Shown here: positions 50,801-64,000 of the stretch, in pieces | Layout of the letters: each line of letters opens with the position of its first letter | Position numbering within the stretch: the stretch's first letter is position 1 | Source: a virus | Reading direction: 5' to 3' (one strand) | DNA length: 64,000 nucleotides | Virus record (IMG/VR): IMGVR_UViG_3300020204_000006 | Notes under the pieces: generated by a model | Told to the model about the DNA's origin: nothing | The model's input: only the letters and a program-made list of their open reading frames with translations | The model's database searches: none | Position numbers and translations under genes: made by a program

Positions 50801-53696
50801 AATGTCTGCAGATAGATGGTTATATTTGGTAGACGGTAGCAATCTTTCTCTTGGGTCAGATAGTATATCTGAAAATGTTTCATATAGTGGCACTATATCT
50901 CATGTATATAGAATAGAAGATGGAGATATAGAAAACTCTTTTGAAACAAATGCTGTGCTTCCTAGTTGGAAGGATTTCCAAAACTATACGTTACTTATAG
51001 ATCCTCAGGGTTTACCAAGATGGGCCTACAGTATATCTTCCGTAAGATTTGGCTCTTCAACTCGATTTATAAGAACAGGCGATGAGCCTGGAATAAAGAT
51101 AGAATCAGATACTATTGGTTCCTATTGCAAGCAAAAGTATTTTCCTAATTGGGGAGAGCGTGGATCTATGCAGTTTAAGATTCCTGGTTCTGCACTTCTT
51201 ATGATTGCCCCAAGTTCAACCAGTAGCTCTAGCAGCAATTCCAGTAGTAGTTCTTTCTTTGACCAGCTTGCTGCTGATGTAGATTCGATTATAAGGTTAA
51301 GATTCCAAAATGCTCCCAGTACAGGTTCTTGCACCAATTCACCATTAGATTCTGATATTATGTCCTTGTACAACAATCCACATAATTCAACTTTTACTTG
51401 GTCTGAACTTAATTGGGACAACTTGTTTGTTAATACAAATCCCAATTCCACAGTTACTGTTAATGGAAGTTCGGTTGCTGTTGACACAACGATTCGTTCT
51501 TTAATTTCTCAATATGTTGGTAACAATTTTAATCCAAGACATGGAGCGACAAATATTCTTGGTTTCCCTAATGGCAGTCCTCCCGTTGCAAATACATGTC
51601 ATCCAAGAAGTAGATATGTAAGAGTATTTACTATAGAAGATATCCCTAAGGGTTGTTGCAGTGGGGTTGCATGGGACAATCTAACTCCTAGTTGCAAATG
51701 TATATCTTCTGGTACGCTTGATGGATGTGGATCAAGCTCTACTACATCAACTCCAGATTTGTGTTCATGTAATGATAAGAGAATAAAGAAGGCTCTTTCT
51801 GAACATGACAATTCTTGTGGACATTGGATAAGAACTACTGGTGTTCAAACTGCTTTTGCTTATAGGGCGGTGAAAAAAAGAATAGAATATGGCGGATCAA
51901 TTGGTAGCGGGGCATCTGCTGTGTCTGGTGCTGCTGCGCAGCAACAGCTTTTAACTGACATATTTGATCGCTGCATGGACATATTGCGTGAAATAAACAA
52001 GTATACTACAAGTCCTAATGGCCAGGGCTCTTATGATATGATGAGAAATGGATGGACTATTGCTAACTGCTCAAATGATCCTAATGTAAATGACGGTCCT
52101 TATCTTGGTACAGCATGGGGAACTAATGGGCTAGTTAGGATGCTTGATCTTATTGGTCCAGATGTTCAGCAGGCAGATCCAGTTTTGTATAGTAGGCTTG
52201 GAGACCAGCTTAGGTCTGAAGTTCTTCAAATGGTTGATGATTGGAAAAATAATCGTGCATGGTACATGAAAGGACATTTGGGTACAAATCCTTGTGGATC
52301 AGGAAGATCAAACACCAATCAGTGGATTGAGCCTGTTTGTGCCCTTGTAAATGCTTCACTTTTCCTGATTGATAGATTTGGTCAAACTGATTTAAAACCC
52401 GCATATAACATGGGAGTTTGTCTTTTAGGTTTTTCCGTAAAAAATCAATTTACAGATGGTGGTTTTGCTGAAGGTTGGGGTTATGCAGTACAGTGTGCCC
52501 CAGAAATGTTCTTTACTATAGAAATGATGAATAAATCTGGTGATTTTAGGATAAGAGATGCCGCGTGGTCACGTAATTTTGTTAATAATTATTGGAATTG
52601 GTTTACTAATCATATGTTGCCAGGAAATTATATAGCTAACTATTCTGATTGCAGGGCTCAACAGGTGGCTTCTTGGGCACTTAGTACGCCATATAGGGAT
52701 CTTCCATTCTCTTCAGAAGCTTGTGATCAAGAAAACAAGATAATTGCTTATAATAATTTTACATTTTTATTCCCTGGTAATCCTGGAAGTATAGATGGGA
52801 TAAAAGGCTATTCTGGTAAAAAGGCGCTAACTGCACTTAATCAGGGCTACGATTTAAATAATCCTATATTGAATATGAGTAATTTTAGAAACTATGCAGA
52901 TTCAAGAATCGTATTTTGGAGAACAGGAAGAGCTAAGCCTTCGGATATAAATAGTTCTTCTGCTAGTTCTCATTTTGCTTTATGGGTTAAGGGAGGTAGC
53001 TTAAAAGATGGGCATAAGCACAGGGATGAAGGTCAATTTGCAATATACTGTGGCAAGAAATCAATTATTCTTGAATCTGGCATGGATTATGATATAGCTC
53101 CCGCACAGGCCGAGGCTTTGGCTAATGAGAGAGGACATAACATATTGCAGATCGGAGCAAAAGCAAGAGGTACTCTTGTTGATTGTCCCATGACGGTTTC
53201 CGCACTAAGTCAGACAAATGGCGATGTTTTTATAAATCTAAATGACTCTTATATACCTGGTGTAATAACTTCATGCAACAGAAGACTTCAATGGTCTCAT
53301 TCTGGAATATTAACTAATCCACTATCGGTTACTGTTTCCGACAGTGTGGTGTTTGCTGCAGCAGTACTTTCTACCCAGGAAATATTTAGATTCCATACTG
53401 GAAGATCTACAGATTCATCTGGTTCTACAAATTCTCTTACTGTTTCTGGCTCTGGTACATCTTGGAATATTTCTTGGCCAGGTGTTACAATGTCAATATC
53501 ATCAAATATACCTATAGTTGTTGCTGATAGTTTTGCGATGGATTTTACTCAACTTTTGCCTCCCACTCAATCTAGTATAAATAATCCAAGGTATCACAGA
53601 ATTATTTCAATAAAACCAGTAAATAATATATCAGCAAATTCTTCGCTTACTTTAACTACAAGTATTATTGCAAATCATGATGTCAATGGTGGATAA
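38844..53696 (+). CDS. ORF10: 4,950-aa putative virion depolymerase/receptor-binding protein: trypsin-like fold, glycosidase-like TIM barrels, two ~220-aa poly-Ser arrays, two heparinase II/III-like polysaccharide lyase modules
   Basis: TAATG overlap with ORF9. Lyase motifs GWWHEGAPAY, HSHADSLHL, SHNTVVVN and YRRTVSLV...YIVDIFRVSGG; second set GGFAEGWGY, GHKHRDEGQF, GHNILQI. Confidence 0.92.
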   Translation: MALTINNNPSKYDLWTYEGSGRIPIGPNYNNIFILNGIQNIFCVSANSRSTASVPNGPPASFNCNGSLVNSSGSINGPFVIAISPHCAVGSLKNFISAGQPIKFWYKHANGGSGGFITRTASNIRFSSSPSRPYEWVAGGYYEGTSSLYSGSFSDVLVYFFDEPLPVDADFAVLPIFNDYKMWRKNSGVFPYNPGVIVDHDSRMVPGSVFMNFTEIYDSDQIGGVTPGASDVRITGIDGYFLSDLNSISDKKYKENYLKYLDEDASYYDNIFRIIKGGATDSTSPIFEVDFESNCLVLYSLSTILTNNRNPSWIKSQNNYDCLCGIRKGNLVSVNMFGLDYFDRSENPYIRLGKNFFNTSRLEGDPFIPGEPNVIPSDLYKIPVKSIDSEYINKFYLGFDVLDYNQESRFSKAYSLGYSHYFYLDNYFDSSDPFDGPFIPNGPGVPFQLRNSFNVSGTINYFSQKYPSTWDQNSSKNLVIGIYGYSGSGSYGSFTVVSDFKNAINQDSFSGFDLVIGSASFKEAKSKIIKYISDIKAALPNMKIGWCDLVGYSNWYPPYVYGDLPESEKSWLSVNDSQKSLIFNCWDKIWEGVIEKLDFISFSFNDNVNRNSNAGSDPALWHEVNRKRAEIAIEYVKRYCYRKNIRCPKILPCISSCTGENIFENCGTSNLFSHANRPISDVEFIERVVSPCVDYGVDGFILKNNSIFEEYYDGWINPNININSRRKLSYNYICNSASSIDLSDCSYYNIINNYSLCSASQNAQNVINSIFSYVENKMSVLSRYLVDFEAFGSGSSSLKNFSLITEIGMNPWDTSAEQLEKYSLLNYDLFNSTPSVDSHMNYTSSVLADSFIENPIYSNGVDWDPDNTNISIYSYDSTYSAGNLVKFFDTKTYRWCVFQATQSVSVGDYPGRSNYFSTDGSGNREYYRSNINIRWKCADINFLYSHYSLVPSINKYYENNKLSLVKGRSKYKAYDLEVPWTFLPVHEANYLLYYDQGVYGLRNGYEDFNFDGGFVNLTSSGFGYSHELGADLFKNFYFSSVSSLFDSNKGIISDFIFWYKNISEDKHKKSFTDNFIYDLIFSYDFNSASYDEFDKPQIVSNLGISENVTRYQIFEYQKYIVPKIERIIKEKSHGKYVMNSGDFRFDCGLITTENTGSRDDNGSQEFMVNSLRQLTESTPHVSSWDSFGRNISSIGSTEYYEPIFLPQFWFGKKDGLYDVVFERTRDISIFSSNYSLNRFVNDSLQMYSSDASIITFKVLGKDENSVSLISEKDQYGFIFGLGVKSISLIIESYEEQGSPVKSRDGDGEEYGPPSFSPAIEKYWICNLSIEMNSQDSQNDFERKFGKIFFNKLMGNLHSDGLKFFTRWKINKKGVVYPSTFPVKSFNPSSLYHLLEQDDISIFDVNSRYNASISLWSNSEIMFATNSYTYSAKSLSSLPPLSGGSGYYPVYKNGQELYQFNSDHSGIEFISNALDSKHYEELKNHFSIFDSENKNTLMVRSYYGLLPLWMSKYGLDDPQFRYNTRYSDKSLELSSKNSREYTGFLIHSNYGRGTSAAQTPYESYEESVASLMKVAKNLSPNKVIVPFVCPKSIGQHYFISCLYHPKEFCYYLVRPWFIGNYRADAVHVWDSYVYYVNSCFYDLSNYSEPAGFRTGIEMAIFNGNMLSIDDAWNINNSSSFDWNSVEKGGMLWDNYGEKAMINLEYTSLNGNDSYYEKPKIVIFIKEVVSLYLKDLYSELNKLLQNPEIYERPSDKSIGYDVLSFLNGLLVSCQNELKVEIVGGGSYSSENWVGYKIEWYKSKSYVDNPYGFELIYTESGAGFIQYIYAPRALTDLLANGDVIKAKLHVNTGYGLNSSSTYECSLYFDSKVNNIGNYFIPSSVVNTREKNILKIVNSEQIAMLVDPPSSSSSSSGSFNNSSSSSSISLSSSSSSLSSSSSSSSSSLLYIPGGDLPEPSSSLDYEVWAAHFTGNMFDANNPEYGRFGHPNYKLLSIVPGISIFGTNYNGHRMPSDTNSASITSANFQQFKNEITSVPSGRRVMIPYYWFPDIGCYTKLHDQYYRNTSDGVVYDDGTRQDRILTCWLDNNSNDCADSFRSFLQRCINDGFNFDYIMNDQETQDNYWIDGRNSYPNWLDDTDGDGYRNDPSPGIDSAGFMHDARRVSAIMSDSRFTSYVNPYTGKTFAQEFMENYQALRVRSGLSEDSRSWQEILAPFANANSPMHFRPSSFYWQAYGCSNGCSPDGITINGLVHPEGYNLFFHALPAWRAAADSWHFNVYWKRFRDVLGEFAEFSNTIHMEYTASAINSEEAKFFQQSNLEISMQPALADSWTGSSRYYAGFFNIIFPNWALPPDGEYNNAKEYCSGYVLTPQNEDELFNWCGYLVLDYKGPSGESNLIRYPETDVSPNATGFDQSLVKRWYTEYCFKHLVNIIKLERVHLRSDPNHWEKFVPWIGYQGYFQARWYNGDVAYYHEMIRHTILNGARIFQIFESNYIPDSCRIIHKILDEWRSISGNSRAQPCSNAFGDASQPVDRMVLKDVFENVLISGGRLVEHPDWYIWRISVAPKHFNSDGICILRKQIQDQDLPDTIIIDSNTSRNNDDSSRRGVWVQRNVPGMPIYSVATFSSSSSSSSSSSSSSSVSSSSSSNSSSSSVSSSSSVSSSSISSSSSESSSSSESSSSSNSSSSSNSSSSSGSSSSSDSSSSSDSSSSSNSSSSSQSSSSSQSSSSSQSSSSSQSSSSSGSSSSSGSSSSSDSSSSSNSSSSSGSSSSSQSSSSSQSSSSSDSSSSSGSSSSSQSSSSSDSSSSSNSSSSSSSGSSSSSHSSSSSGSSSSNSSSSSSSCSAPNWPDFVAYSFSNIFPNAPSVQVCYADNYTISYSTSAQYILQYRVTGSPVQEWTDHIDNPGSYTDVLSTQSINVSNPFEYLTFALRSTSPVTSSTSFVVQVSILDPVEMTVEVVDSFTVTVDNSGSSSSSSSLSSSSSQSSSSSNSSSSSHSSSSSQSSSSSGSSSSSQSSSSSNSSSSSQSSSSSGSSSSSGSSSSSQSSSSSESSSSSNSSSSSQSSSSSNSSSSSGSSSSSNSSSSSGSSSSSNSSSSSRSSSSSGSSSSSQSSSSSNSSSSSQSSSSSNSSSSSRSSSSSGSSSSSQSSSSSRSSSSSQSSSSSQSSSSSGSSSSSQSSSSSLSSSSSSNTDPLFAYRSFGGDPTDTQWTNNFAFNGNVSKSDSQLTSDYIISFNSTSLPFARSYERYVHALVKSWYRGGQTNTTYFNLAVKMIQASLNYRPNITDGTGNLPGQLKINEASEFDLHNTITLDGAKSAINYHLRDACLHFAQLGILTRNASAIRKASSIISGFADKIRDNWPVWNPYFGVGFGTGRLPSSQNIPASYQLESSSGIWGGWIYYDLNLAMPLVQAWSLIKDNPNCTSDKDWVKSMFNLFLQFQTWRRQAAPPTTPWRSNGQPDYSNQDMRLIQGYLEFGILLEEPELVHYGVWYLKNIYRGLFTSDGWWHEGAPAYQDDLQRGLNWAIMDFPGWENSTYRYSDPPGFIASAIDGTRFDDINLYDLVKRQTDRSNRVFSHIQLFNGFPLCRGDSNWNQADSIQVRNTLTIEDSQIIYPASSKLFGTGCLAILGNEKGSSSQKDIGTIVSLEYGSAQTHSHADSLHLNVFSKNQEVMSETQYRPVSGDTISSRAWHSCTASHNTVVVNQISQNTTGSFGDNRRTKNALDEINGMPDWAWRFYSGQRTTNYGKLRLYNKDYSKVKVMEVDAEKSYNAVVSPMTKYRRTVSLVEIDTEDNYIVDIFRVSGGTQHDYMLHSCLQTDYSATISAGVMPSSVSGQLFPSGTAENGMDRINKSESFLTSNNWNVEFLPSASSENWKQYTYMIGQSGSEIIKCTAPSMRIANQTRPFICVRRTASESVFVAVHHAVKKSNSSKISSIQSLPSTNPNVIALKINLTNGRSDTVISGEGPTDSALIDTKIQFTGSFAHVAEHSNSMSADRWLYLVDGSNLSLGSDSISENVSYSGTISHVYRIEDGDIENSFETNAVLPSWKDFQNYTLLIDPQGLPRWAYSISSVRFGSSTRFIRTGDEPGIKIESDTIGSYCKQKYFPNWGERGSMQFKIPGSALLMIAPSSTSSSSSNSSSSSFFDQLAADVDSIIRLRFQNAPSTGSCTNSPLDSDIMSLYNNPHNSTFTWSELNWDNLFVNTNPNSTVTVNGSSVAVDTTIRSLISQYVGNNFNPRHGATNILGFPNGSPPVANTCHPRSRYVRVFTIEDIPKGCCSGVAWDNLTPSCKCISSGTLDGCGSSSTTSTPDLCSCNDKRIKKALSEHDNSCGHWIRTTGVQTAFAYRAVKKRIEYGGSIGSGASAVSGAAAQQQLLTDIFDRCMDILREINKYTTSPNGQGSYDMMRNGWTIANCSNDPNVNDGPYLGTAWGTNGLVRMLDLIGPDVQQADPVLYSRLGDQLRSEVLQMVDDWKNNRAWYMKGHLGTNPCGSGRSNTNQWIEPVCALVNASLFLIDRFGQTDLKPAYNMGVCLLGFSVKNQFTDGGFAEGWGYAVQCAPEMFFTIEMMNKSGDFRIRDAAWSRNFVNNYWNWFTNHMLPGNYIANYSDCRAQQVASWALSTPYRDLPFSSEACDQENKIIAYNNFTFLFPGNPGSIDGIKGYSGKKALTALNQGYDLNNPILNMSNFRNYADSRIVFWRTGRAKPSDINSSSASSHFALWVKGGSLKDGHKHRDEGQFAIYCGKKSIILESGMDYDIAPAQAEALANERGHNILQIGAKARGTLVDCPMTVSALSQTNGDVFINLNDSYIPGVITSCNRRLQWSHSGILTNPLSVTVSDSVVFAAAVLSTQEIFRFHTGRSTDSSGSTNSLTVSGSGTSWNISWPGVTMSISSNIPIVVADSFAMDFTQLLPPTQSSINNPRYHRIISIKPVNNISANSSLTLTTSIIANHDVNGG
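46710..47357 (+). repeat. Poly-Ser hexad array A (216 aa) in ORF10
   Basis: (G/D/N/Q/E/H)SSSSS units on an NNN-TCC-AGY-AGT-AGY-AGY codon template. Confidence 0.97.
47736..48395 (+). repeat. Poly-Ser hexad array B (220 aa) in ORF10
   Basis: (Q/N/G/H/E/R)SSSSS units on the same codon template. Confidence 0.97.
48400..51220 (+). other. Heparinase II/III-like polysaccharide lyase module 1 (helical toroid plus beta-sandwich) in ORF10
   Basis: HEGAPAY at 49347-49367, HSHAD at 49788-49802, SHNTV near 49915. Confidence 0.82.
51260..53693 (+). other. Heparinase II/III-like polysaccharide lyase module 2 in ORF10
   Basis: NQWIEPVCAL, GGFAEGWGY at 52458-52484, NYSDC, GHKHRD at 53010-53027, GHNILQIG. 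Confidence 0.8.
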
Positions 53697-53810: not shown

Positions 53811-56800
53811 ATGGGATTTCCCAATACAGTACACGTACACGGCTCTTTAAGTGACTCTTCAATAGTTGGTCAGGGTAAATATCCTACTATATCCCCTTCA
53901 GCTGTTACTGTTATTGATTGTGGTAATTTTTATTCAGCAGAAAATTCTGGTGATTTGTTCTACATGGTTGATTTTCAGCAATCTGGTGCTGTATCTACTT
54001 CTTATGTTAGGACGATAGCTGATTCTATTGACAATTTTACTGGTGGTTCTTCAAGTTTTATTTATAAAATAAAATCTAGTTTTTCTGGCAAGGTTTATTA
54101 TGGTATTAGACTAGGTTTTACTGCAGAATTTTCTGGTTGTAGAATAAATTTTTATTACTCTAATTCTTTAAATCATTCAATATTTATTTCTGAAAGTGAC
54201 GTGCTTTCTTTGGGTGGTTTAAATAAGTTTTATTTTGTTCATGATTCTTTTACTGCTTTTGATTCAGAGGTTAGAGATTTTAAAATATCAATAGACGCTC
54301 CTGGTGTAATTATTGATTCTATAGTTTTTAGCGATTCTTCAGTCCGTTCTTTTCCTGATATACAGTCTTACATATCAAAAGAAATAGGTTCTATTTTTTC
54401 CCTTGAGTCAAATATTGATCAGAGCGTATCTCTTTCATATGCTTCTTTAAAATCAAAAATTGATTATTCTTCTATTACTCTTCACATGCAAATCTATTTG
54501 ATAGATCAATCTGAAAGAGTTGTTGGTTTTCTCAAATGCCATTCATACATAAATACAAATTCAATAATATTTGATGACGGGTGGATTGCTTTTAACATAA
54601 ATTATTTTAAAAATTATTCTGCTCAAGATCAATATTTTATAATGCAGAATTTCAAGCTTGGCATATCATTGGTCGGTTGCCCAAAAAATGAAAATTTATA
54701 TTTCATATGGTCTCAAGCCGCAGATTACAATTCTGGATTTTTGACCATGAACAGAAATAATGAAGATCAGCTTGTTCAATCTGAATATGATCTGGCGGTA
54801 AAATTATTTGATCAAGGTGAAAGTTCATCTGAAAATAATATACAGACACAGTCTCCTGAAGTTCAAAATTTGATAATAAATAATTTTGATAACTACAAGT
54901 ATTCAAATCCAGTAAATGTAGACATAGAGAATATAGATGACAAAAGAAGTCAAATGGTTTTGAAACTTCCAGACAGAGTTGTGACATTCCTTTTTGACGT
55001 AAGTGGATCTATGACATGGAATGACCCTAATGGTAAAAGATTTGATGTTGCAAAATCTATAATAGACAGATTTGCTGGTGGATATCCTGGCAACCTAAAT
55101 TACCAAGTATTAACTTTTGGTGGAACTAGAATTCTTACAGAGTGGTTTGGTGTTGTTGAAGGAAAAGTTAGTGATACATCTGACGCAAACGAAGCTAAAA
55201 GAAAAGCCTTTTTTGATGAGGCTTTTAAGTTTAATGGTGTTCAAATAGTAAGAAAGAAAGGTTCTCCTCCGGTATCTCCAACGGATGGAGACATAGTTTT
55301 TTCTGGATATTCAAAAATACTATACGACTCTGGGCTAGAAGAAAATACAGAATATTATTATTCCGTATTTAGTCAAACTGATGATGGTAGATTTTCTGAT
55401 CCAGTTGTGATAAAGGCTGTCCCAGAGCCTAGAATTGTTCCATCTGGAATAAAAAATTTAAATGGAAAGTCTTTTAAGGCTTCGGGCATTTCTAGAGATG
55501 TAAACACTCATTGTCTTTTGCACATGGATGAGTCTGGAGGTCTTAATATATTTGACTTTGCAAAAGGGGCAATATTTGTTTATAAAAATACAGAAGAAAA
55601 TTCTTTGCCTATATGGATAGAAAAAAGTGAGTCTATACCTTCATCAAGTGTTCAAGGTGAGGGTAAGGGCAGTGGTCTAAGATTAAATGGCAAAAGTGAA
55701 TATATTCACGTTGAAGATAGTAGCTTTAATCCACTAGTTTCTGAATCTTTTGGATTTATGGTTTGGGTTTACCCATTTTCCTCCAATGAATCATATTTTG
55801 ATTCTCAGCTTGGCTTGATTAATTTAACAAAATCAAATGATGAAATTATTAGAATTTTTATTCAAGAAGACGGTAGCTTATTTGTAAATTCTTCATTGGG
55901 GTCTTTTGTTTCTTCAGAAAAAATTACACCCAATACATGGAATCATATTTGTATTTTTTCAGACTCTTCATCTTCTAAATTATACATAAACGCAAATGAG
56001 GAAGTACACGGTAGTATTTATTCTGGTGAGTCAATAAAAAATTTAGAAATAGGAAGATCTACTGACGATACTTATTACTTTGGAAAAATAACAGAGTTTT
56101 CTCTTCACTCTTCAATAAGAGGTCCTTCGTATGTGTCAGAGCACTACAACAATGTCCCTTCTTGGAATGGAGAATCTATTGCGGTTATGTCATTTGACGT
56201 TCCATCTTCTTACTTAGATGGGAGTAAAAGGTACTCAATAAGGTATAAGCCGGAAATAGGTCCTCTTAGGCATTTGAGTGACGATATAAGTGGGCCTGCA
56301 AATTATGGTTCCTATCAGGGTGATACCGGATTAAGACCGGAAAATGTCCCTCCTGGTTACGTCGTAAGAAATGTAAATTTTTCTAGAATAGTATATGGTG
56401 ATGACTTGGGTCCTACTCATGTGTTTGATGGTACCGAATTTAAGTCTGGAATAATAGACAAAAAAAGTTATAAGCATGTTTTTATTGGTGATTTTGCATC
56501 TCCTTTTGATGAAATTGAAAAACTTTCTATAGGATTAGAGGCTCCCGGTTTTAGACATTTCTTTAGAATTTTTACAATAAATCAAAACGATATATCTTCT
56601 TTGCCAGAAGATAGTGGATTGTTTGAATTTACTCCTCCTATTTGGCGGCAAAGATCAGAATATCCTGTTCAAATATCAGGCGTTTCGGATGTAGAGTATT
56701 TTGTTGGCGACTCAAAAGTCATGCTAACTTGGAATTTAAACAATAAGCAAAATGTAGAAAATATTTTAGTTTATTTTAGTAGGAAGTATAATCCAGACAT

Positions 56801-59800
56801 ACATGCCGCATATAGAAAATACAACGATGCAGCTTCTACCATGGAATTATATCCTGTGTTTTTGGGAGATAAAAATTCCACAGAGTTTGTTTTAAGAAAA
56901 GGTATAGTAGAATTTGCAAGAAGAAATACTAATGACCAGAATAGCCAATTTCAAAATCTCGGACCAATCGGAAGATGTCCAGAGTGCGATCTTCTTAATG
57001 GAGAAAAAGGTTATTTTTCAATATACACCAGAGATAAATTTGGCAATTATAGTGAGCCTGTTTTTGTTGAGGCAATTCCAAATCCAGGAAATCAAGAGTC
57101 GGCTATACCTCCGGATCAAATATTTGGCATTAGATATCAGCCTGTTGATGAGCAGAGTGTCTCAATAAGATGGATTAATCCTAGTAAGATAAATTCATAT
57201 TCTGATATACAATGTTGGCTTGACGACAGAATAGTTTTTTACTTCAGGGCAACTGATATATTTGGTAGAAAATTAGAGACAAGATATGAATTTAAATTTG
57301 TAACAAGTAGAGGTATTGACGTTTCAAATACAGACTCATTCGGTTTTCCTGGTCAAATTTTTCATGGATTCGGTGGTAATTCTTGGGGGTCTAGGTCTTT
57401 TTACTCAGAGCCTCCTCCTCTTGGCTTTTCTGATTCTGAGGCAATTTCTTTATTTTTTGATCCCGAAAGATCAGAGGCACTTAGGGAAAAAATATATTTC
57501 TCTAAAATAGTCAGTGTACAAGAAGTAAAAAATTCATTAGATGGATATTATAAAATATTTTTTGATCTTTCTAATGCTTCTTCTGACCAGCTTTCTATGA
57601 TAAATCAGGTGTATTTTGCTGCTCAAATAGTTTTGAGAACATCAAAAGATATAAGAGAAAATGCTATTGCAGACAGATCAAATACTTCTATAATATTTGA
57701 TTCTCAAGATAAATTTGAGTATGCTACTTTGCCAATAAGGGTTTTAATGGATCAGCCACTTGCTATAGTGGCATATCAGAATGGCAATGTTGTATATCCA
57801 AGAGGCACTACTTTATTTGTTCCTGAACCAGGTCCTGGTAATGTTAGCTTCGATCCCTGTGATGATGCATTTTATGGTCAATCTCAAGATGGGTTTTACT
57901 ATGAAAGCGGTAAATTAACACCAGGCTGTTATGTTTCTAGAAATAGACCATACTCAATTTTAATTAGAGCTTCATATAGGAAGCAGCCATTGCCGGATGG
58001 CACATTAATAGATGCATATGTGTATAACGATGTTAGTCCATATGATCCTTCTTTATCAAATAGATTTAATGCTTTTTCTGTTTGGGGGGAAATTTGTGGA
58101 TTAGTGGCATATTGCAATCAAGACAGTCTTTTGGATCCAGATCCTTTTGCTGGTACATATTCTTTAAGCAACATAGGTTTGCTTAGTTCTTCTGGAACCT
58201 TTGCGACTCATTCTTCTGGTAGATTTTCAGAATGCGTATATAGAATACCTGTTCCTGATTCTCCTTCTTCTGTAAGAGTAATATTCAAACTAAGTATTGA
58301 TAGTTTTTTTGCATGTCCTCAAGTATATTTGAATTTTGTATCTAATTTAAGAATAAAAATTAATACAAGGGGACCTATAGCTGATGGAGTAGACGTTGCA
58401 AAGCAACTTTGTTTTGCATATACAATAGACCCAGATTTTGATGTTTCATCTGGAAACAATGTTGATATAGCTCAACAGTATATACAGCCAGTACCTGATT
58501 TTACCCCAATATCTTGGGAGCTATTGAAATATAGAAACGCCAAAGAAAGACCTTTTTATTCTACTTCTCAACAGCAGAACAATGGATCTTTTGTTTTGGC
58601 AGATGGAGTGTTTGATTTTACTCAAAATGGCTATAGTCAAAGTGTGTTTTTTGGTCCAGCAAACGGAGTAGTTGCTAGTTTAATTGGAGACGGAGAAGAT
58701 GTATTTTTAATAGGAGAAGAATACGCTATTAAGGCTTCTATTACATATAACGGTTATACAGTAAGTGCATTTGGCCCTGCTTGTATATTCCCAATTAATA
58801 CAACAAGTAATTCCGATAATCCTGATTTACCTTCAATAAAAAAATCTTCATTTTTTATGTCAAATGCAAATGGAGAGTTTGTTGAGAATATATATAGTGA
58901 CGGTAAAGACTATGCGGTATTTTTGGTTTCTAGGGATCCAGAAATCACTTATGTTAATTCTTCAGGGGTTTTAAGATCAACTGTTTCTGGTTTCTTAAAA
59001 TGCTATAATTCAACCTTGTTTGATGATTCTGGTATAGAAAATGCAATTATTTATAAACCACAGGTTGGTTCTTCTTTGCTTTTTGAAATTATAAGGCCAT
59101 ATTCTTATTTTGAATCAACTGAGCCTTATTGGAAAAACCAAGTAAAAATAATACACAAGAATCTTCTTTTCGTAGAAGAAAATGGCGTTGTAGTCCCAAG
59201 AGGTGACGTTGTGTCCTCCAATTCATCTTTTGTGTCTATTGGAAACGAAAATGAAAATCTTATTGCCATTACTTGTAATGCATTTATTCCTTTAATGTGG
59301 TCAAAATTTGGAGAGCCCACTACGTTGAAAGACAACGGTATGATATGCTCCCATATACATCAGAATCCTTTTGGTTCTGCTGGTGCAATTGGTCCTCCTC
59401 AAGTTCCTTTTATAGACTATGATATAGAAATAAAAGGAACTATAAGTGCAACTGTAGACGGAAAAAGCCAGAATATAATTAGTTCTGGTAACTGGGGCAC
59501 TGGCAATCCACCAAAATTTGTTAAGTTTATAGAGCCTCTCAGGGTAGATCTTGCTTATGTTATGGTTAACGGTCAACCTTCATCTACATTAAAAATAGAT
59601 GGTTTCTCTCAAAATAGACTTGTTTTTGTAGTTACTTTTGCTGGAAGGCCAGTTTCTGAAAATAGCATACTTAAAGTGTATCAGTGTGGCACCGAAATAC
59701 TTGTACCAGAACAAGATATAATAAGAGCAGAAATAAAAAATGATCCATTTTTTACCGGTAGGGATATTTCTGGTAATATAATACCTGGATATATCCCGGG

Positions 59801-62800
59801 TAATCAAAGTTTTTTCTATCTTGATATATTGCCAATACAAACTATTGATTTAGTTGATTGCAAAATTTTTGTTGAAAGTAATTATGACGAGTCTGGAACT
59901 ATCGCTAGGCAAAGAGTTCTTGGAGTAAAGATAAATTATGTTCCTAGTAGTGGTGGTGGTACATCAGGATTTTTTGACTCTGATGTAGAAGTATCTTCTT
60001 CAAGTAGTTATTCGGAAGAATCGCCAGACTCTTCTAATGGAGAGGGTTTTTCTTCTTTTGTCGGTGATGCTGGTTTCATTACAGATAGTGAATCTTCTTC
60101 GTCTTCTTCTTCGTCATTTTCTTCATCCTCTTCTTCGTCTTTTAACATACCCATATTAGAAGATGATCTTTCTGAAGCAGTTAGACCATCAGGTTCGTCG
60201 CCTTTTACAAAAACATGCTATATATATGATTTGTCCCTAGAGGGTCAAGAAGAGACTTCCCCTTGGATTAGAATTGCAGATATGGCAATGGATAGAGCTT
60301 GGAGCTCAACTGAGTATATAAATGGAAATATTTATAACATAGGTGGAGTTATATCTCCTGGTATAACATCTTATAATGAGTACTGGATTGCTAGTCAAAA
60401 TAGATGGGTTTACAGGGCTGCCATGCCTGTTTCTAAATTTGGCATGCAAAGCTGCAATGATGGTCGTTATATATATTGTTTTGGCGGCATAGAAATAGCA
60501 GACGTTAGGGTTGGTGGTGGATTTGGTGGTGGCATGGGTGGACCAACAGGGGGTGGCACTTCTAGTTCATCTGGCTCAAGTTCAAGCAGTTCCATATTAA
60601 CTCAAAGAAGACCAGTGGTTTCCACTACTGTTCATAGATATGATACAGTCACCGACACTTGGATTCAACTAAAGTCTATGCCTGTTTTAGATGTAGATGG
60701 TAATGATATTAGTGATACTACTATACCAAGCAACCTCAGTATAACAAAATATGGTGTTGCTTTTGGCAAGGCTCATTTAGTAGGCGACAAAATTTATATA
60801 ATTTGCGGTGCTAACTATATAAATTATTCAACTTTTGAGCCATCAAAAATGAATGACAGAATATTAATTTATGATATTTTAACAAATAAGTGGTCCTTTA
60901 GTGAAGCTCCTGATGATCTGTCAAAAGCTACTTATCAAAGAGTTTATCCGTCTTCTTTCATAAAAGACGATAAAATATTTGTTTTTGGTGGTACAAAGTA
61001 TGAAATACAGCTTGAAACAATTTATGTAACTGGATGGTTTGGTTCTATACAGGTTCCTTATACTAGTAAAATAACTGCTACAGATATTTACAGCATAGAT
61101 TTAGGAGTATTTAGTGCATCAAATTATTCTTCTATGAATTTCAGTATATCTGATGCAAGTTATTTATTCGACACAATACCTTATCCAAGAGATCAGGCTG
61201 GATGTTTGGTTCTTAATCAAGATATTTATGTTCTTGGTGGTAGGATACTTCCGAATGGCGACTATCCTGGCACCCCTCATTCTAGGAAGTTTGAAAGACT
61301 TGTTTATTCAAATGGTTCCTATTCTCATCAGAAAATTGAAAAAATACCCCAGGGAAGAAGTATTTTTGGTATGGTTTCAGATAGTCTTAGTAGAATATTT
61401 GTATGCGGTGGTATAATATCTTCATTTGCTCCAGGGTATGCTCAAATAAAAGTTGAGGCATATGGAGAGCAGACCGAAAAAAACTCTGATTATACTGTAA
61501 GCATTTACGAAGAAGCAGATGCAGTTGTTAGGCTTGACGGAAGATCTTCTTGCGACTTAATAGTAACTTTGTATGATGAAGAAGGCGACATAATAGAAAA
61601 AAGTGTTCGTGTAGAAATATACGGATCTATTAAGTTTCCAACTGAAGATGACTTTGAAGATGGCCCAGGAATGGGATTCTTTAACAGAGGTGCAGAAGTA
61701 AGAAAAAGAATACTTAAAAGAAGAGGAACAAGAGTCTATCCAATTCAAATATCTCCACAAAATTCACTCTCACAAGATGGCAAGATTTTTGCAAAAGTTC
61801 TTCCTAGAACAGAAGATCCCCTTAGGACTCTAAGTGAAATTGCATCTATACTTAATAGGGATGTAAGTACAGACGGTGTTGGAGATCAATCTGATATAAT
61901 AAATATTGTTCAAGATACTGTTAGATTCCCATATCAAATTGTAATTTCAGCTCAAGTTGTTGATGATTTTTACTTTGGAAGTACAGTATATAATCCTATT
62001 TCCTCTTCAAGTTCATCTTCTGATGTTCTTTTTTATCCTGAGCTTTTTGAGCCAGATACTCAGGCGGATGCTGGAGAGTTTTCATCAGCCAGATCTATGC
62101 CCTCATTTAAGGTAATAAATACATCTGGCACTAGTGCAGTTTTGCCGACTTACTTTTTTGATCGTGGTTTTATTCTCATGACTCAGCAATTTGGATTTAT
62201 TGGCACAGTTGGAGATTCAGATCTTTATGCTGTTACTGTTCCCAAAACAGGATCTTATAAATTAAGTGTTGTAAGAAGAAACTTTAGTTCAATTAAAACA
62301 AAAGTAAAAATATACAACTCAAATACTCTTCCATATCCTGTGTGCTCAACTGGCGGTTCTAATACAATAGCATTTAGAAACCAATTTGGTATACCAGAAT
62401 ATTTTTCGCCATGTGGTTCGGCAAATCTTGGAGAAATAGGAGACGCTATAAATCTTGTTGCTGGAAAATTATATTATCTTGAGGTTTCTGCTCTTGATGA
62501 AAATTCAACAAATTTAAGTGAAAAAGTAGGAGAATATTCTCTAAGGCTTGGCATAGTTATTAACCAAAATGAAGTTGGTTTTTATGCAAATATATATAAT
62601 TCTGGATCTCAATCTGGATCGTCATTTAGATCTGTTCGATCCTCTGGTAATAATTCATATTCTGATGGAGCTATTCAGGGTTCTTCCGATTCCGAAGAGA
62701 GTTTTGCTGCTTTGAATTTTAGAAATGGCTCATCTGACTGTATATTTACTTGTCCAGAGTGTCTGCCAGATAGCTCTAAGTGGGCTGGAGTTTCATGTAC

Positions 62801-64000
62801 GGGAAGTGACAATACTAATTGCGTATCTCTTCAAGTTGACTCATCTCCTCCTTCTGGCAGTCTTGATTTCTATTCATTTAGAAGCTTGCAGACATCATCA
62901 AGTACTTCTTCTGATCCTTACGATCCTTATGGAGGCGTAGTTGTTCCTCCTCCACAACCTCCGATTACTCTGCCAGAATATCTTTCTGTAGAATTTTCTA
63001 ATATAGATATTGTAATTTTAGCAAACTCTGCTGGTTTTTCTTTATTTGATAGAAACACCAGTCCTATTATACAGTATTACGCAGATTTTGACTGGATACC
63101 AGAAGTTAGAGAAGTATTATCAATAGATGACGGTAATTATTCAAATGTGAATTTAGCTATAAATAGACTCAAAAATATACCTCCATTTGGTTGCTCTCCA
63201 CTTTTTGATGGTGTTGACTCTATAGTTAGATCTTTCGATTTACAGAAGCTTGATCCATACTATCAGGATTTTAAAGAAACGCTGTATATAATGACAGATA
63301 ATGATGAGAATACAAGTGATTCAAACCCTGATGATGTTGCTTCAAATGTCAATTCTATATCTGGAGAATTTAATACTCCTATTGTTGCATACAATTTTAA
63401 CTTGTTTAAGCCAACCACAATAGCCAATGAGGCATCTGTTGCCAACTCTGGCTCTTTAGCTAGATTTATGAAGCAAGTTGGTGGAGAAATAATTAACTTT
63501 GTTGAAGAATCCATATATGAAAAATATGTTGACTTTGGAGTTGGTGAGGCAATAGGAGGTGTTGGTCACGGAGAAATTGAGCTTTTAATATCATTTGATG
63601 AGAATGTATCCATAACAGGTTTTGAGTATGAGTTTGAAAAACCAAATTTTACAAACATATTATGGAATGCAAAATCTTCTTCTGATGGTGAGACTTTCGA
63701 TAATGATAAAACATTTTACGACATAAAAGAAGGCAAACAAGAAAAATTTATTAATAGCAGTTTTATTAAATTGACTTTTAAATTCTTGCATTTCTTTAAG
63801 GATTCTTTTGTAGATCCTTATGAAATTTCACCTGATGCAGAAACTCCTAAGATAAAATCAGTAAAAATTTATTATAATTACCCAAGGGAAAACATAATAG
63901 TCCTTAAATCTCTTAATTTTACTGACAATCCACAACAGGTATCAATAAATATAATTGCAGAAAATGATGAAAACAGCAAAATATATGTAGGTGTTTCTTC
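53811..64000 (+). CDS. ORF11 (absent from the ORF track, 3'-truncated, >3,390 aa): giant adhesin-like virion protein: split vWA, FnIII, LamG, invasin/Big_1-like Ig, Kelch propeller and PPC domains
   Basis: ATG GGA TTT CCC... at 53811. The frame is open at every point translated, including the window end (GAA AAT GAT GAA AAC AGC AAA ATA TAT GTA GGT GTT TCT), and the track lists no stop-terminated ORF in this frame. Motifs: FLFDVSGSM (54987-55013), LamG at about 55500-56155, Kelch at about 60260-61430, PPC at about 62190-62560, YIMTDNDEN (63285-63311). Confidence 0.9.
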   Translation, partial: MGFPNTVHVHGSLSDSSIVGQGKYPTISPSAVTVIDCGNFYSAENSGDLFYMVDFQQSGAVSTSYVRTIADSIDNFTGGSSSFIYKIKSSFSGKVYYGIRLGFTAEFSGCRINFYYSNSLNHSIFISESDVLSLGGLNKFYFVHDSFTAFDSEVRDFKISIDAPGVIIDSIVFSDSSVRSFPDIQSYISKEIGSIFSLESNIDQSVSLSYASLKSKIDYSSITLHMQIYLIDQSERVVGFLKCHSYINTNSIIFDDGWIAFNINYFKNYSAQDQYFIMQNFKLGISLVGCPKNENLYFIWSQAADYNSGFLTMNRNNEDQLVQSEYDLAVKLFDQGESSSENNIQTQSPEVQNLIINNFDNYKYSNPVNVDIENIDDKRSQMVLKLPDRVVTFLFDVSGSMTWNDPNGKRFDVAKSIIDRFAGGYPGNLNYQVLTFGGTRILTEWFGVVEGKVSDTSDANEAKRKAFFDEAFKFNGVQIVRKKGSPPVSPTDGDIVFSGYSKILYDSGLEENTEYYYSVFSQTDDGRFSDPVVIKAVPEPRIVPSGIKNLNGKSFKASGISRDVNTHCLLHMDESGGLNIFDFAKGAIFVYKNTEENSLPIWIEKSESIPSSSVQGEGKGSGLRLNGKSEYIHVEDSSFNPLVSESFGFMVWVYPFSSNESYFDSQLGLINLTKSNDEIIRIFIQEDGSLFVNSSLGSFVSSEKITPNTWNHICIFSDSSSSKLYINANEEVHGSIYSGESIKNLEIGRSTDDTYYFGKITEFSLHSSIRGPSYVSEHYNNVPSWNGESIAVMSFDVPSSYLDGSKRYSIRYKPEIGPLRHLSDDISGPANYGSYQGDTGLRPENVPPGYVVRNVNFSRIVYGDDLGPTHVFDGTEFKSGIIDKKSYKHVFIGDFASPFDEIEKLSIGLEAPGFRHFFRIFTINQNDISSLPEDSGLFEFTPPIWRQRSEYPVQISGVSDVEYFVGDSKVMLTWNLNNKQNVENILVYFSRKYNPDIHAAYRKYNDAASTMELYPVFLGDKNSTEFVLRKGIVEFARRNTNDQNSQFQNLGPIGRCPECDLLNGEKGYFSIYTRDKFGNYSEPVFVEAIPNPGNQESAIPPDQIFGIRYQPVDEQSVSIRWINPSKINSYSDIQCWLDDRIVFYFRATDIFGRKLETRYEFKFVTSRGIDVSNTDSFGFPGQIFHGFGGNSWGSRSFYSEPPPLGFSDSEAISLFFDPERSEALREKIYFSKIVSVQEVKNSLDGYYKIFFDLSNASSDQLSMINQVYFAAQIVLRTSKDIRENAIADRSNTSIIFDSQDKFEYATLPIRVLMDQPLAIVAYQNGNVVYPRGTTLFVPEPGPGNVSFDPCDDAFYGQSQDGFYYESGKLTPGCYVSRNRPYSILIRASYRKQPLPDGTLIDAYVYNDVSPYDPSLSNRFNAFSVWGEICGLVAYCNQDSLLDPDPFAGTYSLSNIGLLSSSGTFATHSSGRFSECVYRIPVPDSPSSVRVIFKLSIDSFFACPQVYLNFVSNLRIKINTRGPIADGVDVAKQLCFAYTIDPDFDVSSGNNVDIAQQYIQPVPDFTPISWELLKYRNAKERPFYSTSQQQNNGSFVLADGVFDFTQNGYSQSVFFGPANGVVASLIGDGEDVFLIGEEYAIKASITYNGYTVSAFGPACIFPINTTSNSDNPDLPSIKKSSFFMSNANGEFVENIYSDGKDYAVFLVSRDPEITYVNSSGVLRSTVSGFLKCYNSTLFDDSGIENAIIYKPQVGSSLLFEIIRPYSYFESTEPYWKNQVKIIHKNLLFVEENGVVVPRGDVVSSNSSFVSIGNENENLIAITCNAFIPLMWSKFGEPTTLKDNGMICSHIHQNPFGSAGAIGPPQVPFIDYDIEIKGTISATVDGKSQNIISSGNWGTGNPPKFVKFIEPLRVDLAYVMVNGQPSSTLKIDGFSQNRLVFVVTFAGRPVSENSILKVYQCGTEILVPEQDIIRAEIKNDPFFTGRDISGNIIPGYIPGNQSFFYLDILPIQTIDLVDCKIFVESNYDESGTIARQRVLGVKINYVPSSGGGTSGFFDSDVEVSSSSSYSEESPDSSNGEGFSSFVGDAGFITDSESSSSSSSSFSSSSSSSFNIPILEDDLSEAVRPSGSSPFTKTCYIYDLSLEGQEETSPWIRIADMAMDRAWSSTEYINGNIYNIGGVISPGITSYNEYWIASQNRWVYRAAMPVSKFGMQSCNDGRYIYCFGGIEIADVRVGGGFGGGMGGPTGGGTSSSSGSSSSSSILTQRRPVVSTTVHRYDTVTDTWIQLKSMPVLDVDGNDISDTTIPSNLSITKYGVAFGKAHLVGDKIYIICGANYINYSTFEPSKMNDRILIYDILTNKWSFSEAPDDLSKATYQRVYPSSFIKDDKIFVFGGTKYEIQLETIYVTGWFGSIQVPYTSKITATDIYSIDLGVFSASNYSSMNFSISDASYLFDTIPYPRDQAGCLVLNQDIYVLGGRILPNGDYPGTPHSRKFERLVYSNGSYSHQKIEKIPQGRSIFGMVSDSLSRIFVCGGIISSFAPGYAQIKVEAYGEQTEKNSDYTVSIYEEADAVVRLDGRSSCDLIVTLYDEEGDIIEKSVRVEIYGSIKFPTEDDFEDGPGMGFFNRGAEVRKRILKRRGTRVYPIQISPQNSLSQDGKIFAKVLPRTEDPLRTLSEIASILNRDVSTDGVGDQSDIINIVQDTVRFPYQIVISAQVVDDFYFGSTVYNPISSSSSSSDVLFYPELFEPDTQADAGEFSSARSMPSFKVINTSGTSAVLPTYFFDRGFILMTQQFGFIGTVGDSDLYAVTVPKTGSYKLSVVRRNFSSIKTKVKIYNSNTLPYPVCSTGGSNTIAFRNQFGIPEYFSPCGSANLGEIGDAINLVAGKLYYLEVSALDENSTNLSEKVGEYSLRLGIVINQNEVGFYANIYNSGSQSGSSFRSVRSSGNNSYSDGAIQGSSDSEESFAALNFRNGSSDCIFTCPECLPDSSKWAGVSCTGSDNTNCVSLQVDSSPPSGSLDFYSFRSLQTSSSTSSDPYDPYGGVVVPPPQPPITLPEYLSVEFSNIDIVILANSAGFSLFDRNTSPIIQYYADFDWIPEVREVLSIDDGNYSNVNLAINRLKNIPPFGCSPLFDGVDSIVRSFDLQKLDPYYQDFKETLYIMTDNDENTSDSNPDDVASNVNSISGEFNTPIVAYNFNLFKPTTIANEASVANSGSLARFMKQVGGEIINFVEESIYEKYVDFGVGEAIGGVGHGEIELLISFDENVSITGFEYEFEKPNFTNILWNAKSSSDGETFDNDKTFYDIKEGKQEKFINSSFIKLTFKFLHFFKDSFVDPYEISPDAETPKIKSVKIYYNYPRENIIVLKSLNFTDNPQQVSINIIAENDENSKIYVGVS

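What the first reader, a model, noticed from the sequence alone, without database searches (positions are those of the whole stretch)
54975..63520. vWA domain apparently split by a ~2,650-aa insertion of nested domains
Seen: the N-half RVVTFLFDVSGSMTWNDPNGKRFDVAKSIIDRF...YQVLTFGG (54975-55124; MIDAS DxSxS at 54996-55010) stops after the second strand. The C-half appears about 8 kb later: LAINRLKNIPPFGCSPLFDGV (S at 63195), LYIMTDNDEN (D at 63297), TPIVAYNF, LARFMKQVGGEII (to about 63500). Neither part looks complete alone. Between them lie FnIII units, a LamG apparently inserted within an FnIII-like unit, Big_1-like Ig domains, a Kelch propeller and a PPC domain. Established: vWA MIDAS uses DxSxS + T + D, and pilus-tip adhesins tolerate vWA insertions, but of far smaller size. 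Inference: a giant looped-out multi-domain arm closed by a metal-dependent vWA clasp.
Basis: partly seen in the sequence, partly recalled or inferred. Interest (0 to 1): 0.85.

Follow-up and report, generated by a model that had tools for sequence, protein, structure and literature searches.

The report
Two-piece vWA domain in giant phage protein
A giant protein of a probable huge phage carries the first quarter and the remaining three quarters of a single metal-binding vWA adhesion domain about 2,650 residues apart, and in some relatives on two separate proteins, so the domain most likely forms only when the two distant pieces meet.

Summary
One ORF (53811 to beyond 63998, + strand; about 3,930 aa in 97%-identical relatives) has an N-piece (res 384-452) that matches only the first 48-54 positions of the Pfam VWA models and carries DxSxS. 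Its C-piece (res 3083-3249) has no Pfam hit. Folded alone, it gives three strands plus helices. In an unbiased PDB search about 49 of the top 50 matches are vWA domains. Where chain numbering starts at the domain, those matches begin about 45-58 residues in. The pieces are therefore complementary, and neither completes a fold locally.

All five MIDAS positions (D396, S398, S400, S3129, D3163) are kept in 42 of 45 giant homologues with 16% mean column identity. The N-piece is the best-conserved stretch of the protein.

In relatives the gene is split at two well-supported points, with class evidence for a third, always inside the "insertion". This puts the pieces on adjacent gene products.

Physical pairing was not tested, because the complex predictor was unavailable. 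"Split vWA" is well supported. "Metal-dependent clasp" remains inference. The LamG and Kelch domains are confirmed; Big_1 and PPC are not.

Another first-stage read of the same DNA (e1-5829865) noted this feature. No note on other DNA was found.

The parts
53811..63998 (+). Giant ORF, 3,396 aa within the window and open at the 3' end. Full length is about 3,930 aa, judged from the 97%-identical locus L007.
53898..54410 (+). N-terminal beta-sandwich (residues ~30-200) resembling CBM6/CBM35 carbohydrate-binding modules.
   Evidence: AlphaFold pLDDT is 80-93 over this part. Foldseek against the PDB gives E 1e-8 to 1e-5, prob 1.0, to CBM6/35 modules.
54960..55166 (+). vWA N-piece (residues 384-452): betaA, the MIDAS loop DxSGSMTWND, alpha1, betaB and possibly betaC. 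DxSxS lies at 54996-55010.
   Evidence: Pfam VWA_2 positions 2-48/107 and VWA positions 2-54/174. Modelled strands 389-396 and 429-436 and helix 409-424. It contains the most conserved 40-aa window of the protein. D396 and G399 are invariant and S398 and S400 are at least 90% conserved in 45 sequences.
55230..55418 (+). First unit of the inserted arm: an FnIII-like beta domain (residues 474-536).
   Evidence: Modelled as 4 strands with pLDDT up to 89. Weak hit to the FnIII-like Pur_ac_phosph_N family.
55689..56123 (+). Laminin_G_3 (LamG) domain, residues 627-771.
   Evidence: Pfam E 1.3e-12, 48.5 bits against a cutoff of 27.6.
60306..61412 (+). Kelch beta-propeller, residues ~2166-2534.
   Evidence: Several Kelch families score above their cutoffs.
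62088..63056 (+). Poorly conserved segment before the C-piece (residues ~2760-3082).
   Evidence: No Pfam hit. It is the least conserved part of the alignment.
63057..63557 (+). vWA C-piece (residues 3083-3249). It has a conserved entry segment ending in DWIP, then alpha2, the PFGxS loop (S3129 at 63195), alpha3, betaD with TDN (D3163 at 63297), alpha4, betaE, alpha5, betaF and the C-terminal helix.
   Evidence: AlphaFold model. vWA-only structural matches that start ~45-58 residues into the domain in domain-numbered chains. G3127 and D3163 are invariant and S3129 is at least 90% conserved. 86 representatives were found in 1.84 billion proteins.
63558..63998 (+). Start of the conserved C-terminal part, which runs about 680 aa further in full-length relatives. 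No family was assigned.

Best explanation
The protein is a giant, probably virion-associated, host-surface-binding protein of a huge phage. It contains one MIDAS-type vWA domain encoded in two pieces.

The pieces. The N-piece (betaA, the DxSxS loop, alpha1, betaB) lies just after an N-terminal CBM6-like module. The C-piece (from about betaC/alpha2 to the last helix, carrying the Ser/Thr and Asp MIDAS ligands) lies about 2,630 residues later.

Assembly. In the folded protein the central strand betaA of the N-piece slots between betaB and betaD. This completes the six-stranded sheet and brings D396, S398 and S400 together with S3129 and D3163 around one divalent cation. The assembled domain ties together the root and the tip-return of a multi-domain arm of about 2,650 aa (FnIII-like, LamG, Kelch and other units). 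It acts as a hub between the N-terminal CBM module, the arm and the C-terminal ~680 aa. In relatives whose gene is split inside the arm, the same complementation joins two adjacent gene products non-covalently.

Role of the MIDAS. The complete, strictly conserved MIDAS most likely binds an acidic ligand, either a host-surface molecule or a partner virion protein, as in integrin I-domains and pilus-tip adhesins.

Shown: both pieces are real, complementary, 1:1 and highly conserved, and neither folds completely on its own. Inferred: docking of the pieces, metal binding, ligand binding and virion location.
For: 1. Complementary coverage. The N-piece matches Pfam VWA_2 positions 2-48/107 and VWA 2-54/174, and ITIH4 273-325. 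The C-piece model aligns to ITIH4 316-459 and, in chains numbered from the domain start, to Rpn10 58-187, BatB 53-205 and BchD 54-188.
2. Fold identity of the C-piece. About 49 of the top 50 among 48,161 PDB representatives are vWA folds. Nine of 10 ESM Atlas shape rows are vWA. All top language-model clusters for the homologue P0041 are vWA (a lead only).
3. Neither piece is complete locally. The C-piece alone models as three strands, with its conserved first 52 residues disordered. The N-piece within residues 1-560 models as betaA-alpha1-betaB, and residues 434-472 have pLDDT below 50. Many relatives have only ~50 residues before the N-piece, so the CBM module cannot be what completes it.
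4. MIDAS conservation. The quintet is D-S-S-S-D in 42 of 45 sequences. One variant has the canonical GGT and TDG motifs. A3 has 17 invariant columns, and D396, G399, W403, G3127 and D3163 are among them, at 16% mean column identity. Keeping the C-piece ligands conserved makes sense only if a DxSxS loop is supplied from elsewhere.
5. Conservation rank. The N-piece is the most conserved 40-aa window and the C-piece the fourth.
6. Stoichiometry. There is exactly one N-piece and one C-piece per locus in the window and in 15 loci that cover both positions.
7. Split genes. Variants keep both pieces on adjacent genes.
Against: Both models have only moderate confidence (mean pLDDT 61 and 63), and the structural Z-scores (at most 7.9) are in the range the tool calls 'middling'.

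The C-piece has no significant sequence match to any vWA family or solved vWA.

Covariation between the pieces is no stronger than with control regions (Neff 41).

Both pieces contain strand-like segments that could be betaC (residues 441-450 and 3098-3105), so the exact seam is unknown.

The split-gene relatives could equally be read as showing that each piece works without covalent linkage to the other.

Virion location and ligand are inferred from context only.
Confidence: 0.62

Rival explanations
1. The two pieces do form one vWA fold, but between different copies of the protein rather than within one chain. The N-piece of one molecule completes the C-piece of a neighbour. This would give interlocked oligomers or head-to-tail chains or nets of giant fibres, analogous to donor-strand complementation in pili.
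For: Split-gene relatives show that complementation in trans must work if the fold is real. The pieces lie near opposite ends of a very long protein, so intramolecular closure requires the arm to fold back on itself. Phage fibre proteins are commonly oligomeric (general knowledge).
Against: Nothing here distinguishes cis from trans pairing. In the split-gene forms the stoichiometry is one gene A to one gene B, which fits a simple heterodimer as well. No oligomerisation signal was examined.
Confidence: 0.17
2. The pieces are independent relics or modules that never meet. The N-piece would be a small metal- or ligand-binding element packed on neighbouring domains. The C-piece would be a truncated Rossmann-like domain stabilised by other parts of the protein or by another virion protein.
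For: Docking is unproven. The C-piece has no sequence-level vWA match. There is no excess covariation. Gene fission shows the pieces need no covalent connection.
Against: A three-stranded C-piece and a betaA-alpha1-betaB N-piece are each incomplete folds. Their coverage of the vWA fold is precisely complementary, with at most ~10 residues of overlap. The Ser/Thr and Asp ligands on the C-piece and the DxSxS on the N-piece are near-invariant at 16% mean column identity, which is hard to explain unless they form one site. No other N-like or C-like piece exists in the window.
Confidence: 0.18
3. The finding is an artefact: a misassembled or chimeric ORF, or chance motif matches.
For: The source is a metagenome-type sequence. 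The C-piece motifs are short.
Against: The same architecture is found on at least 14 independently assembled contigs from different samples, and in 45 representative clusters at 50% identity or less. The ORF is uninterrupted over 10 kb.
Confidence: 0.01

Closest known systems
Canonical MIDAS-type vWA / integrin alpha I-domains (e.g. alphaM 1na5/1bho, alpha1 1ck4; ITIH4 9c4f_I, ITIH1 6fpy)
   Same: The secondary-structure order is the same when the two pieces are read in series. The DxSxS ... S/T ... D metal-site pattern is present. These are the best structural matches of the C-piece (Z 7.9-7.2 over ~130 aligned residues).
   Different: Known domains are contiguous over about 180-200 aa. Here the chain leaves after betaB/betaC and returns about 2,630 residues later, or continues on another polypeptide. 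Ser replaces the usual Thr ligand in most members, and TDN replaces TDG.
Gram-positive and type V pilus-tip adhesins with insertions in the vWA domain (RrgA, GBS104; SpaC 6m48, PitA 7w6b and Mfa5 6to1 were among the hits)
   Same: They are adhesins whose vWA domain tolerates inserted arms, and they sit at the end of a long fibre. They appear among the structural matches. Insertions into their vWA are described in PMC7893114 (found; not read in detail).
   Different: Their insertions are tens of residues, up to about a hundred, and lie next to the MIDAS face (my recollection). Here the insert is about 2,650 aa in roughly ten or more domains, at the betaC/alpha2 junction. That junction should lie on the face opposite the MIDAS, which I infer from the vWA topology. 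No sortase signal or isopeptide domains were seen.
Nested domain insertions in integrin beta subunits (betaI inside hybrid inside PSI) and the alphaI domain inside the beta-propeller
   Same: One domain is interrupted by another whole domain whose two ends lie close together.
   Different: Those inserts are single domains of about 200-240 aa (general knowledge). Here the vWA is the host domain rather than the guest, and the insert is an order of magnitude larger.
Donor-strand complementation in chaperone-usher pili and other fold-complementation assemblies
   Same: This is a 'works like' comparison only. An incomplete fold on one polypeptide is completed by a segment of another. That is what the split-gene relatives would need.
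   Different: The fold is different (Ig-like, with one donated strand). Here a beta-alpha-beta unit would be donated to an alpha/beta domain. No experimental evidence exists for this family.

Membership tests
vWA domain (Pfam clan vWA-like; PF00092/PF13519) | Significant match to a vWA family profile | tested here: inconclusive
   The N-piece scores 27.2 bits on VWA_2 against a cutoff of 27 as a 200-aa segment, but 22.5 bits in the whole protein. It covers profile positions 2-48 only. The C-piece and 21 homologous C-pieces give no vWA hit; DUF1194 hits once at E 0.083. A joined construct could not be scanned.
vWA domain (Pfam clan vWA-like; PF00092/PF13519) | Alpha/beta fold with a six-stranded sheet (order C-B-A-D-E-F) flanked by helices | tested here: inconclusive
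   Modelled separately, the pieces give betaA-alpha1-betaB and alpha2, alpha3, betaD, alpha4, betaE, alpha5, betaF and the last helix. The C-piece aligns almost only to vWA structures, from ~residue 45-58 of the domain onward in domain-numbered chains.
vWA domain (Pfam clan vWA-like; PF00092/PF13519) | MIDAS motif DxSxS ... T ... D | tested here: met
   D396, S398, S400, S3129 (Ser in place of Thr; Thr in P0081) and D3163. The pattern is D-S-S-S-D in 42 of 45 homologues. Metal binding itself was not tested.
vWA domain (Pfam clan vWA-like; PF00092/PF13519) | A single contiguous domain of about 180-200 residues | tested here: not met
   The pieces are 1,600-2,700 aa apart in all 45 giant homologues. 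They lie on separate genes in L006, L029 and L030. No contiguous close relative was found.
Pilus-tip adhesin type vWA with inserted arms (RrgA/SpaC-like) | Short beta-rich arms inserted next to the MIDAS, CnaB-type isopeptide domains, and a sortase signal | not tested
   SpaC, PitA and Mfa5 appear only as generic vWA structural matches. No Pfam hit to Cna or sortase-related families was seen. The C-terminus lies outside the window.
Phage tail fibre or host-recognition protein | Encoded in the virion structural module and present in the virion | not testable with these tools
   Evidence is contextual only. The gene is the last in a run of same-strand giant ORFs. There is a weak PHROG tail hit in a neighbour. 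Relatives have phage-like neighbours: GroES-like Cpn10, helicase, D12 methylase, IF3, DnaB and glycosyltransferases. Unchecked first-stage notes mention portal and neck genes upstream.

The most novel reading that the evidence does not exclude
Huge phages use a vWA domain encoded in two pieces as a fold-complementation coupler. The beta-alpha-beta N-piece of one segment or protein completes the C-piece of another and creates the metal site only on assembly. This could close a 2,650-residue multi-domain loop, join two giant gene products, or link copies head to tail. It would be a new assembly principle for giant fibres, comparable to donor-strand complementation, and the largest domain insertion I am aware of.
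Probability: 0.3. Interest if true: 0.85.

Novelty: new variant of a known kind. Interest (0 to 1): 0.7.

Why it matters
vWA/MIDAS domains are among the best-studied adhesion modules, and all solved examples I know of are contiguous or carry small insertions. A conserved family in which the fold is interrupted by about ten or more whole domains would stretch current ideas in two ways. It bears on how large an insertion a domain can tolerate, and on how giant proteins fold: the N-piece must wait for some 8 kb of translation, or for a second protein. This family also shows repeated gene fission that leaves the two pieces on different polypeptides.

It also gives a concrete, testable handle on the architecture of the multi-thousand-residue proteins of huge phages, which are otherwise nearly unannotatable. 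If the pieces associate on their own, the system could serve as a natural split-domain pair for protein engineering.

Tried and rejected
- Complex prediction was tried five times (N-piece 376-475 plus C-piece 3046-3250 plus Mg). It was never reachable and was finally declared unavailable. The decisive co-fold was therefore not done.
- The joined halves could not be scanned or folded, because chimeric sequences have no reference.
- Sequence routes to show that the C-piece is vWA all failed:
  - Pfam on the window's C-piece and on 22 aligned members.
  - A profile search against PDB sequences. The single sequence gave only ITIH4 at E 1.6.
  - A profile search for short proteins (nothing at E <= 10).
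  - hhalign against E. coli ViaA (uninformative).
  - tblastn against plasmids (chance RepA hits only).
- No relatives were found in IMG/VR viral contigs, INPHARED phages or GTDB species genomes.
- No whole genome is held for the window, and the records behind the loci are not held either.
- Covariation (MI with APC) between the pieces gave a maximum z of 5.05, against up to 5.29 for control regions. With Neff 41 this is uninformative.
- I considered and rejected the idea that the segment before the C-piece (residues 3058-3080, with an 'IVILANSAG'-type stretch) supplies a local betaA. It is not conserved in the family and models as disordered.
- I considered and rejected the idea that the N-terminal CBM-like module completes the N-piece. 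Many relatives lack that module.
- No contiguous or short-insert relative was found. The smallest separation seen is about 1,540 aa (P0084).
Full report
**Observation**

The region lies in a single ORF, 53811 to beyond the window end at 63998 on the + strand. It is 3,396 codons without a stop. It is the last of a run of same-strand giant ORFs in DNA of about 30-40% G+C. Every coordinate in the finding checks out. The N-half motif starts at residue 389 (54975). D396-x-S398-x-S400 lies at 54996-55010. S3129 is at 63195 and D3163 at 63297. Full-length relatives at 91-97% identity are 3,917-3,941 aa long, so about 530 residues lie beyond the window.

**What each piece is**

The N-piece:
- It matches Pfam VWA_2 over profile positions 2-48 of 107, with E 6.5e-6 and 27.2 bits against a cutoff of 27 when a 200-aa segment is scanned.
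- It matches PF00092 VWA over positions 2-54 of 174. The match stops there.
- A 16-sequence profile of this piece hits only the beginnings of solved vWA domains: a hemolysin-type protein 9no5, PTMP1, ITIH4 273-325, CobT and CLCA1.

The C-piece:
- It has no Pfam hit, alone or in 21 homologues, and no profile hit in PDB sequences.
- Folded alone with a 22-sequence alignment (mean pLDDT 61), it gives helices at 65-76 and 86-96, a strand at 113-117, a helix, a strand at 146-151, two helices, a strand at 181-185 and a long final helix.
- That is three parallel strands only. The conserved first 52 residues are disordered.

This model was searched in four ways:
- Foldseek against the PDB: the top hit is the ITIH4 vWA with prob 0.96, but E is only 0.03.
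- VIA-align on Foldseek's list.
- VIA-align against 48,161 PDB representatives without Foldseek.
- The ESM Atlas by shape.

The unbiased PDB search returns vWA-fold domains in about 49 of the top 50 rows (Z 7.6-5.5, about 120-135 aligned residues). They include bacterial vWA, ITIH1/4, integrin alpha and beta I-domains, TFIIH p44/p34, Rpn10, Sec23/24, collagen VI/VII, SpaC, PitA, Mfa5, Ku80, BchD, alpha2delta, CLCA1 and C2a. Nine of ten Atlas rows are vWA clusters. The individual Z-scores are in the range the tool calls middling. The weight of the result lies in the uniformity of the list and in where the alignments start.

Where chain numbering starts at the domain, the aligned range begins about 45-58 residues in: Rpn10 58-187, BatB 53-205, BchD 54-188 and the CD11b construct 45-186. 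For ITIH4 it is 316-459. The same ITIH4 domain is hit at 273-325 by the N-piece. The two pieces therefore tile the vWA fold with at most about ten residues of overlap.

A language-model search on the C-piece of homologue P0041 also returns only vWA clusters, with scores of 0.81-0.86 (a lead only).

**Does either piece complete a fold locally?**

For the C-piece the answer is no.

For the N-piece I folded residues 1-560 with 26 sequences. The result was:
- a confident N-terminal beta-sandwich (residues ~30-200, pLDDT 80-93), which Foldseek assigns to CBM6/CBM35-type carbohydrate-binding modules (E 1e-8 to 1e-5);
- poorly modelled linkers;
- strand 389-396, helix 409-424 and strand 429-436 at moderate confidence;
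- residues 434-472 below pLDDT 50;
- a confident FnIII-like unit at 474-536.

No local element supplies the missing strands. Many relatives have only ~50 residues ahead of the N-piece, so the CBM module cannot be its partner. The stretch just before the C-piece, which at first sight looks like a degenerate betaA, is neither conserved nor modelled.

**Family and conservation**

An exhaustive phmmer search of 1.84 billion representatives with the C-piece found 86 proteins. HMMs built locally gave these results:
- All 45 hits longer than 2,200 aa carry one N-piece and one C-piece, 1,600-2,700 aa apart.
- The same holds for metagenome loci on contigs of up to 522 kb.
- There is exactly one of each piece in the window.

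In the 45-sequence alignment (16% mean column identity) only 17 columns are invariant. D396, G399, W403, G3127 and D3163 are among them. S398, S400 and S3129 are at least 90% conserved. The five MIDAS positions read D-S-S-S-D in 42 of 45 sequences. One variant has the textbook GGT and TDG motifs. The N-piece contains the most conserved 40-residue window of the whole protein, and the C-piece ranks fourth. It is hard to see why the Ser/Thr and Asp ligands on the C-piece, which lacks any DxSxS of its own, would be kept unless the N-piece loop meets them.

**Split genes**

The 47 shorter hits are mostly products of genes that begin inside the 'insertion'.
- In L006 (a 79-kb contig), a 2,219-aa gene carries the N-piece at 86-156. 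The next gene (P0041, 1,045 aa) carries the C-piece at 201-363. Stops in all three frames lie between them. A 226-kb contig has the same layout.
- In L029 (a 547-kb contig), the break lies before the Kelch propeller. Gene A (1,276 aa) has the N-piece at 203-266, and gene B (1,527 aa) has the C-piece at 767-921.
- A third class of ~1,080-aa proteins starts at the Kelch repeats.
- L030 shows three genes, but it comes from a 2.5x-coverage assembly, so it should be treated with caution.
- Each class has a conserved Met start across eight to ten clusters at 50% identity or less, or six for the ~1,080-aa class. These are therefore real gene boundaries.

Breaks occur only within the arm and never within a piece, and both pieces are always retained.

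**Interpretation**

The best reading is one vWA/MIDAS domain made from two distant segments, in cis in the fused genes and in trans in the split ones. The seam lies after betaB/betaC. From the known vWA topology (betaC runs antiparallel, away from the MIDAS face) this should place all four chain exits on the face opposite the metal site. The MIDAS would then be free for a ligand, much as an integrin alphaI domain sits on its propeller. This geometric point is inference.

The two conserved but unmodelled segments at the seam (residues ~438-472 and 3083-3100, the latter with the near-invariant W-x-P) may pair as a neck. Sheet and core complementation would hold the pieces together, and the ion would at most add a bridge.

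Whether pairing is intramolecular or between copies cannot be decided here. Covariation analysis was uninformative.

**Context**

Several lines point to a huge phage:
- The family is absent from IMG/VR, INPHARED and GTDB genomes.
- It occurs on 460-547-kb metagenome contigs next to glycosyltransferase islands, Cpn10, helicase, D12 methylase, IF3 and DnaB.
- Unchecked first-stage notes on portal and neck genes upstream agree with this.

The CBM6-like, LamG and Kelch modules suggest a host-surface-binding role.

**Novelty**

I found no description of a discontinuous vWA of this kind. The known vWA insertions in pilus adhesins are far smaller. I class the finding as a new variant of a known kind. 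It is of high interest if docking is confirmed.

**Limits**

Model confidence is moderate. No co-fold was possible. Function and location are inferred.

Noticed in passing
window 53898-54410 (residues ~30-200 of the ORF): The N-terminus of the giant protein is a confident beta-sandwich that matches CBM6/CBM35 carbohydrate-binding modules (Foldseek E 1e-8 to 1e-5). Pfam sees nothing there. Many relatives lack this module.
   Followed up: partly
L006:3327-13138; L029:10001-18422; L030:10001-19796: Recurrent gene fission of the giant gene at different points, all inside the arm. Each class of shorter protein has a conserved Met start. L030 comes from a 2.5x-coverage assembly and may contain errors.
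   Followed up: partly
L010, L013, L021, L029 (contigs of 465, 506, 522 and 547 kb): The family sits on very large metagenome contigs. It is absent from IMG/VR, INPHARED and GTDB species genomes, so this huge-phage lineage appears to be missing from curated viral collections.
   Followed up: partly
L029:1-3346: In a related 547-kb contig, a 3,426-aa gene two genes upstream has precomputed hits to ordinary VWA families plus BNR/sortilin repeats. These phages therefore carry other vWA-bearing giants. The vWA part lies outside the fetched locus.
   Followed up: no
window 30778-38844: This 2,688-aa ORF has an RCC1-repeat propeller (RCC1_2 E 2e-20; WD40_RLD E 3.7e-30). It is the only other Pfam-recognisable domain among the ORFs of this window that were scanned.
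   Followed up: no
window 7783-30226 and 38844-53696: Seven of the eight ORFs here (150 to 4,950 aa) were scanned against Pfam and none gave a hit at E <= 0.01. ORF 20529-26108 was scanned only against PHROGs. PHROGs, run on six of the ORFs, gave only two marginal tail/virion hits, both in 20529-26108.
   Followed up: no
It looks like a variable or swappable module just before the conserved C-piece.
   Followed up: partly
P0081 (2,778 aa homologue): This one family member has the canonical vWA motifs GGT and TDG in place of PFGxS and TDN. It links the divergent C-piece to ordinary vWA sequence patterns.
   Followed up: no
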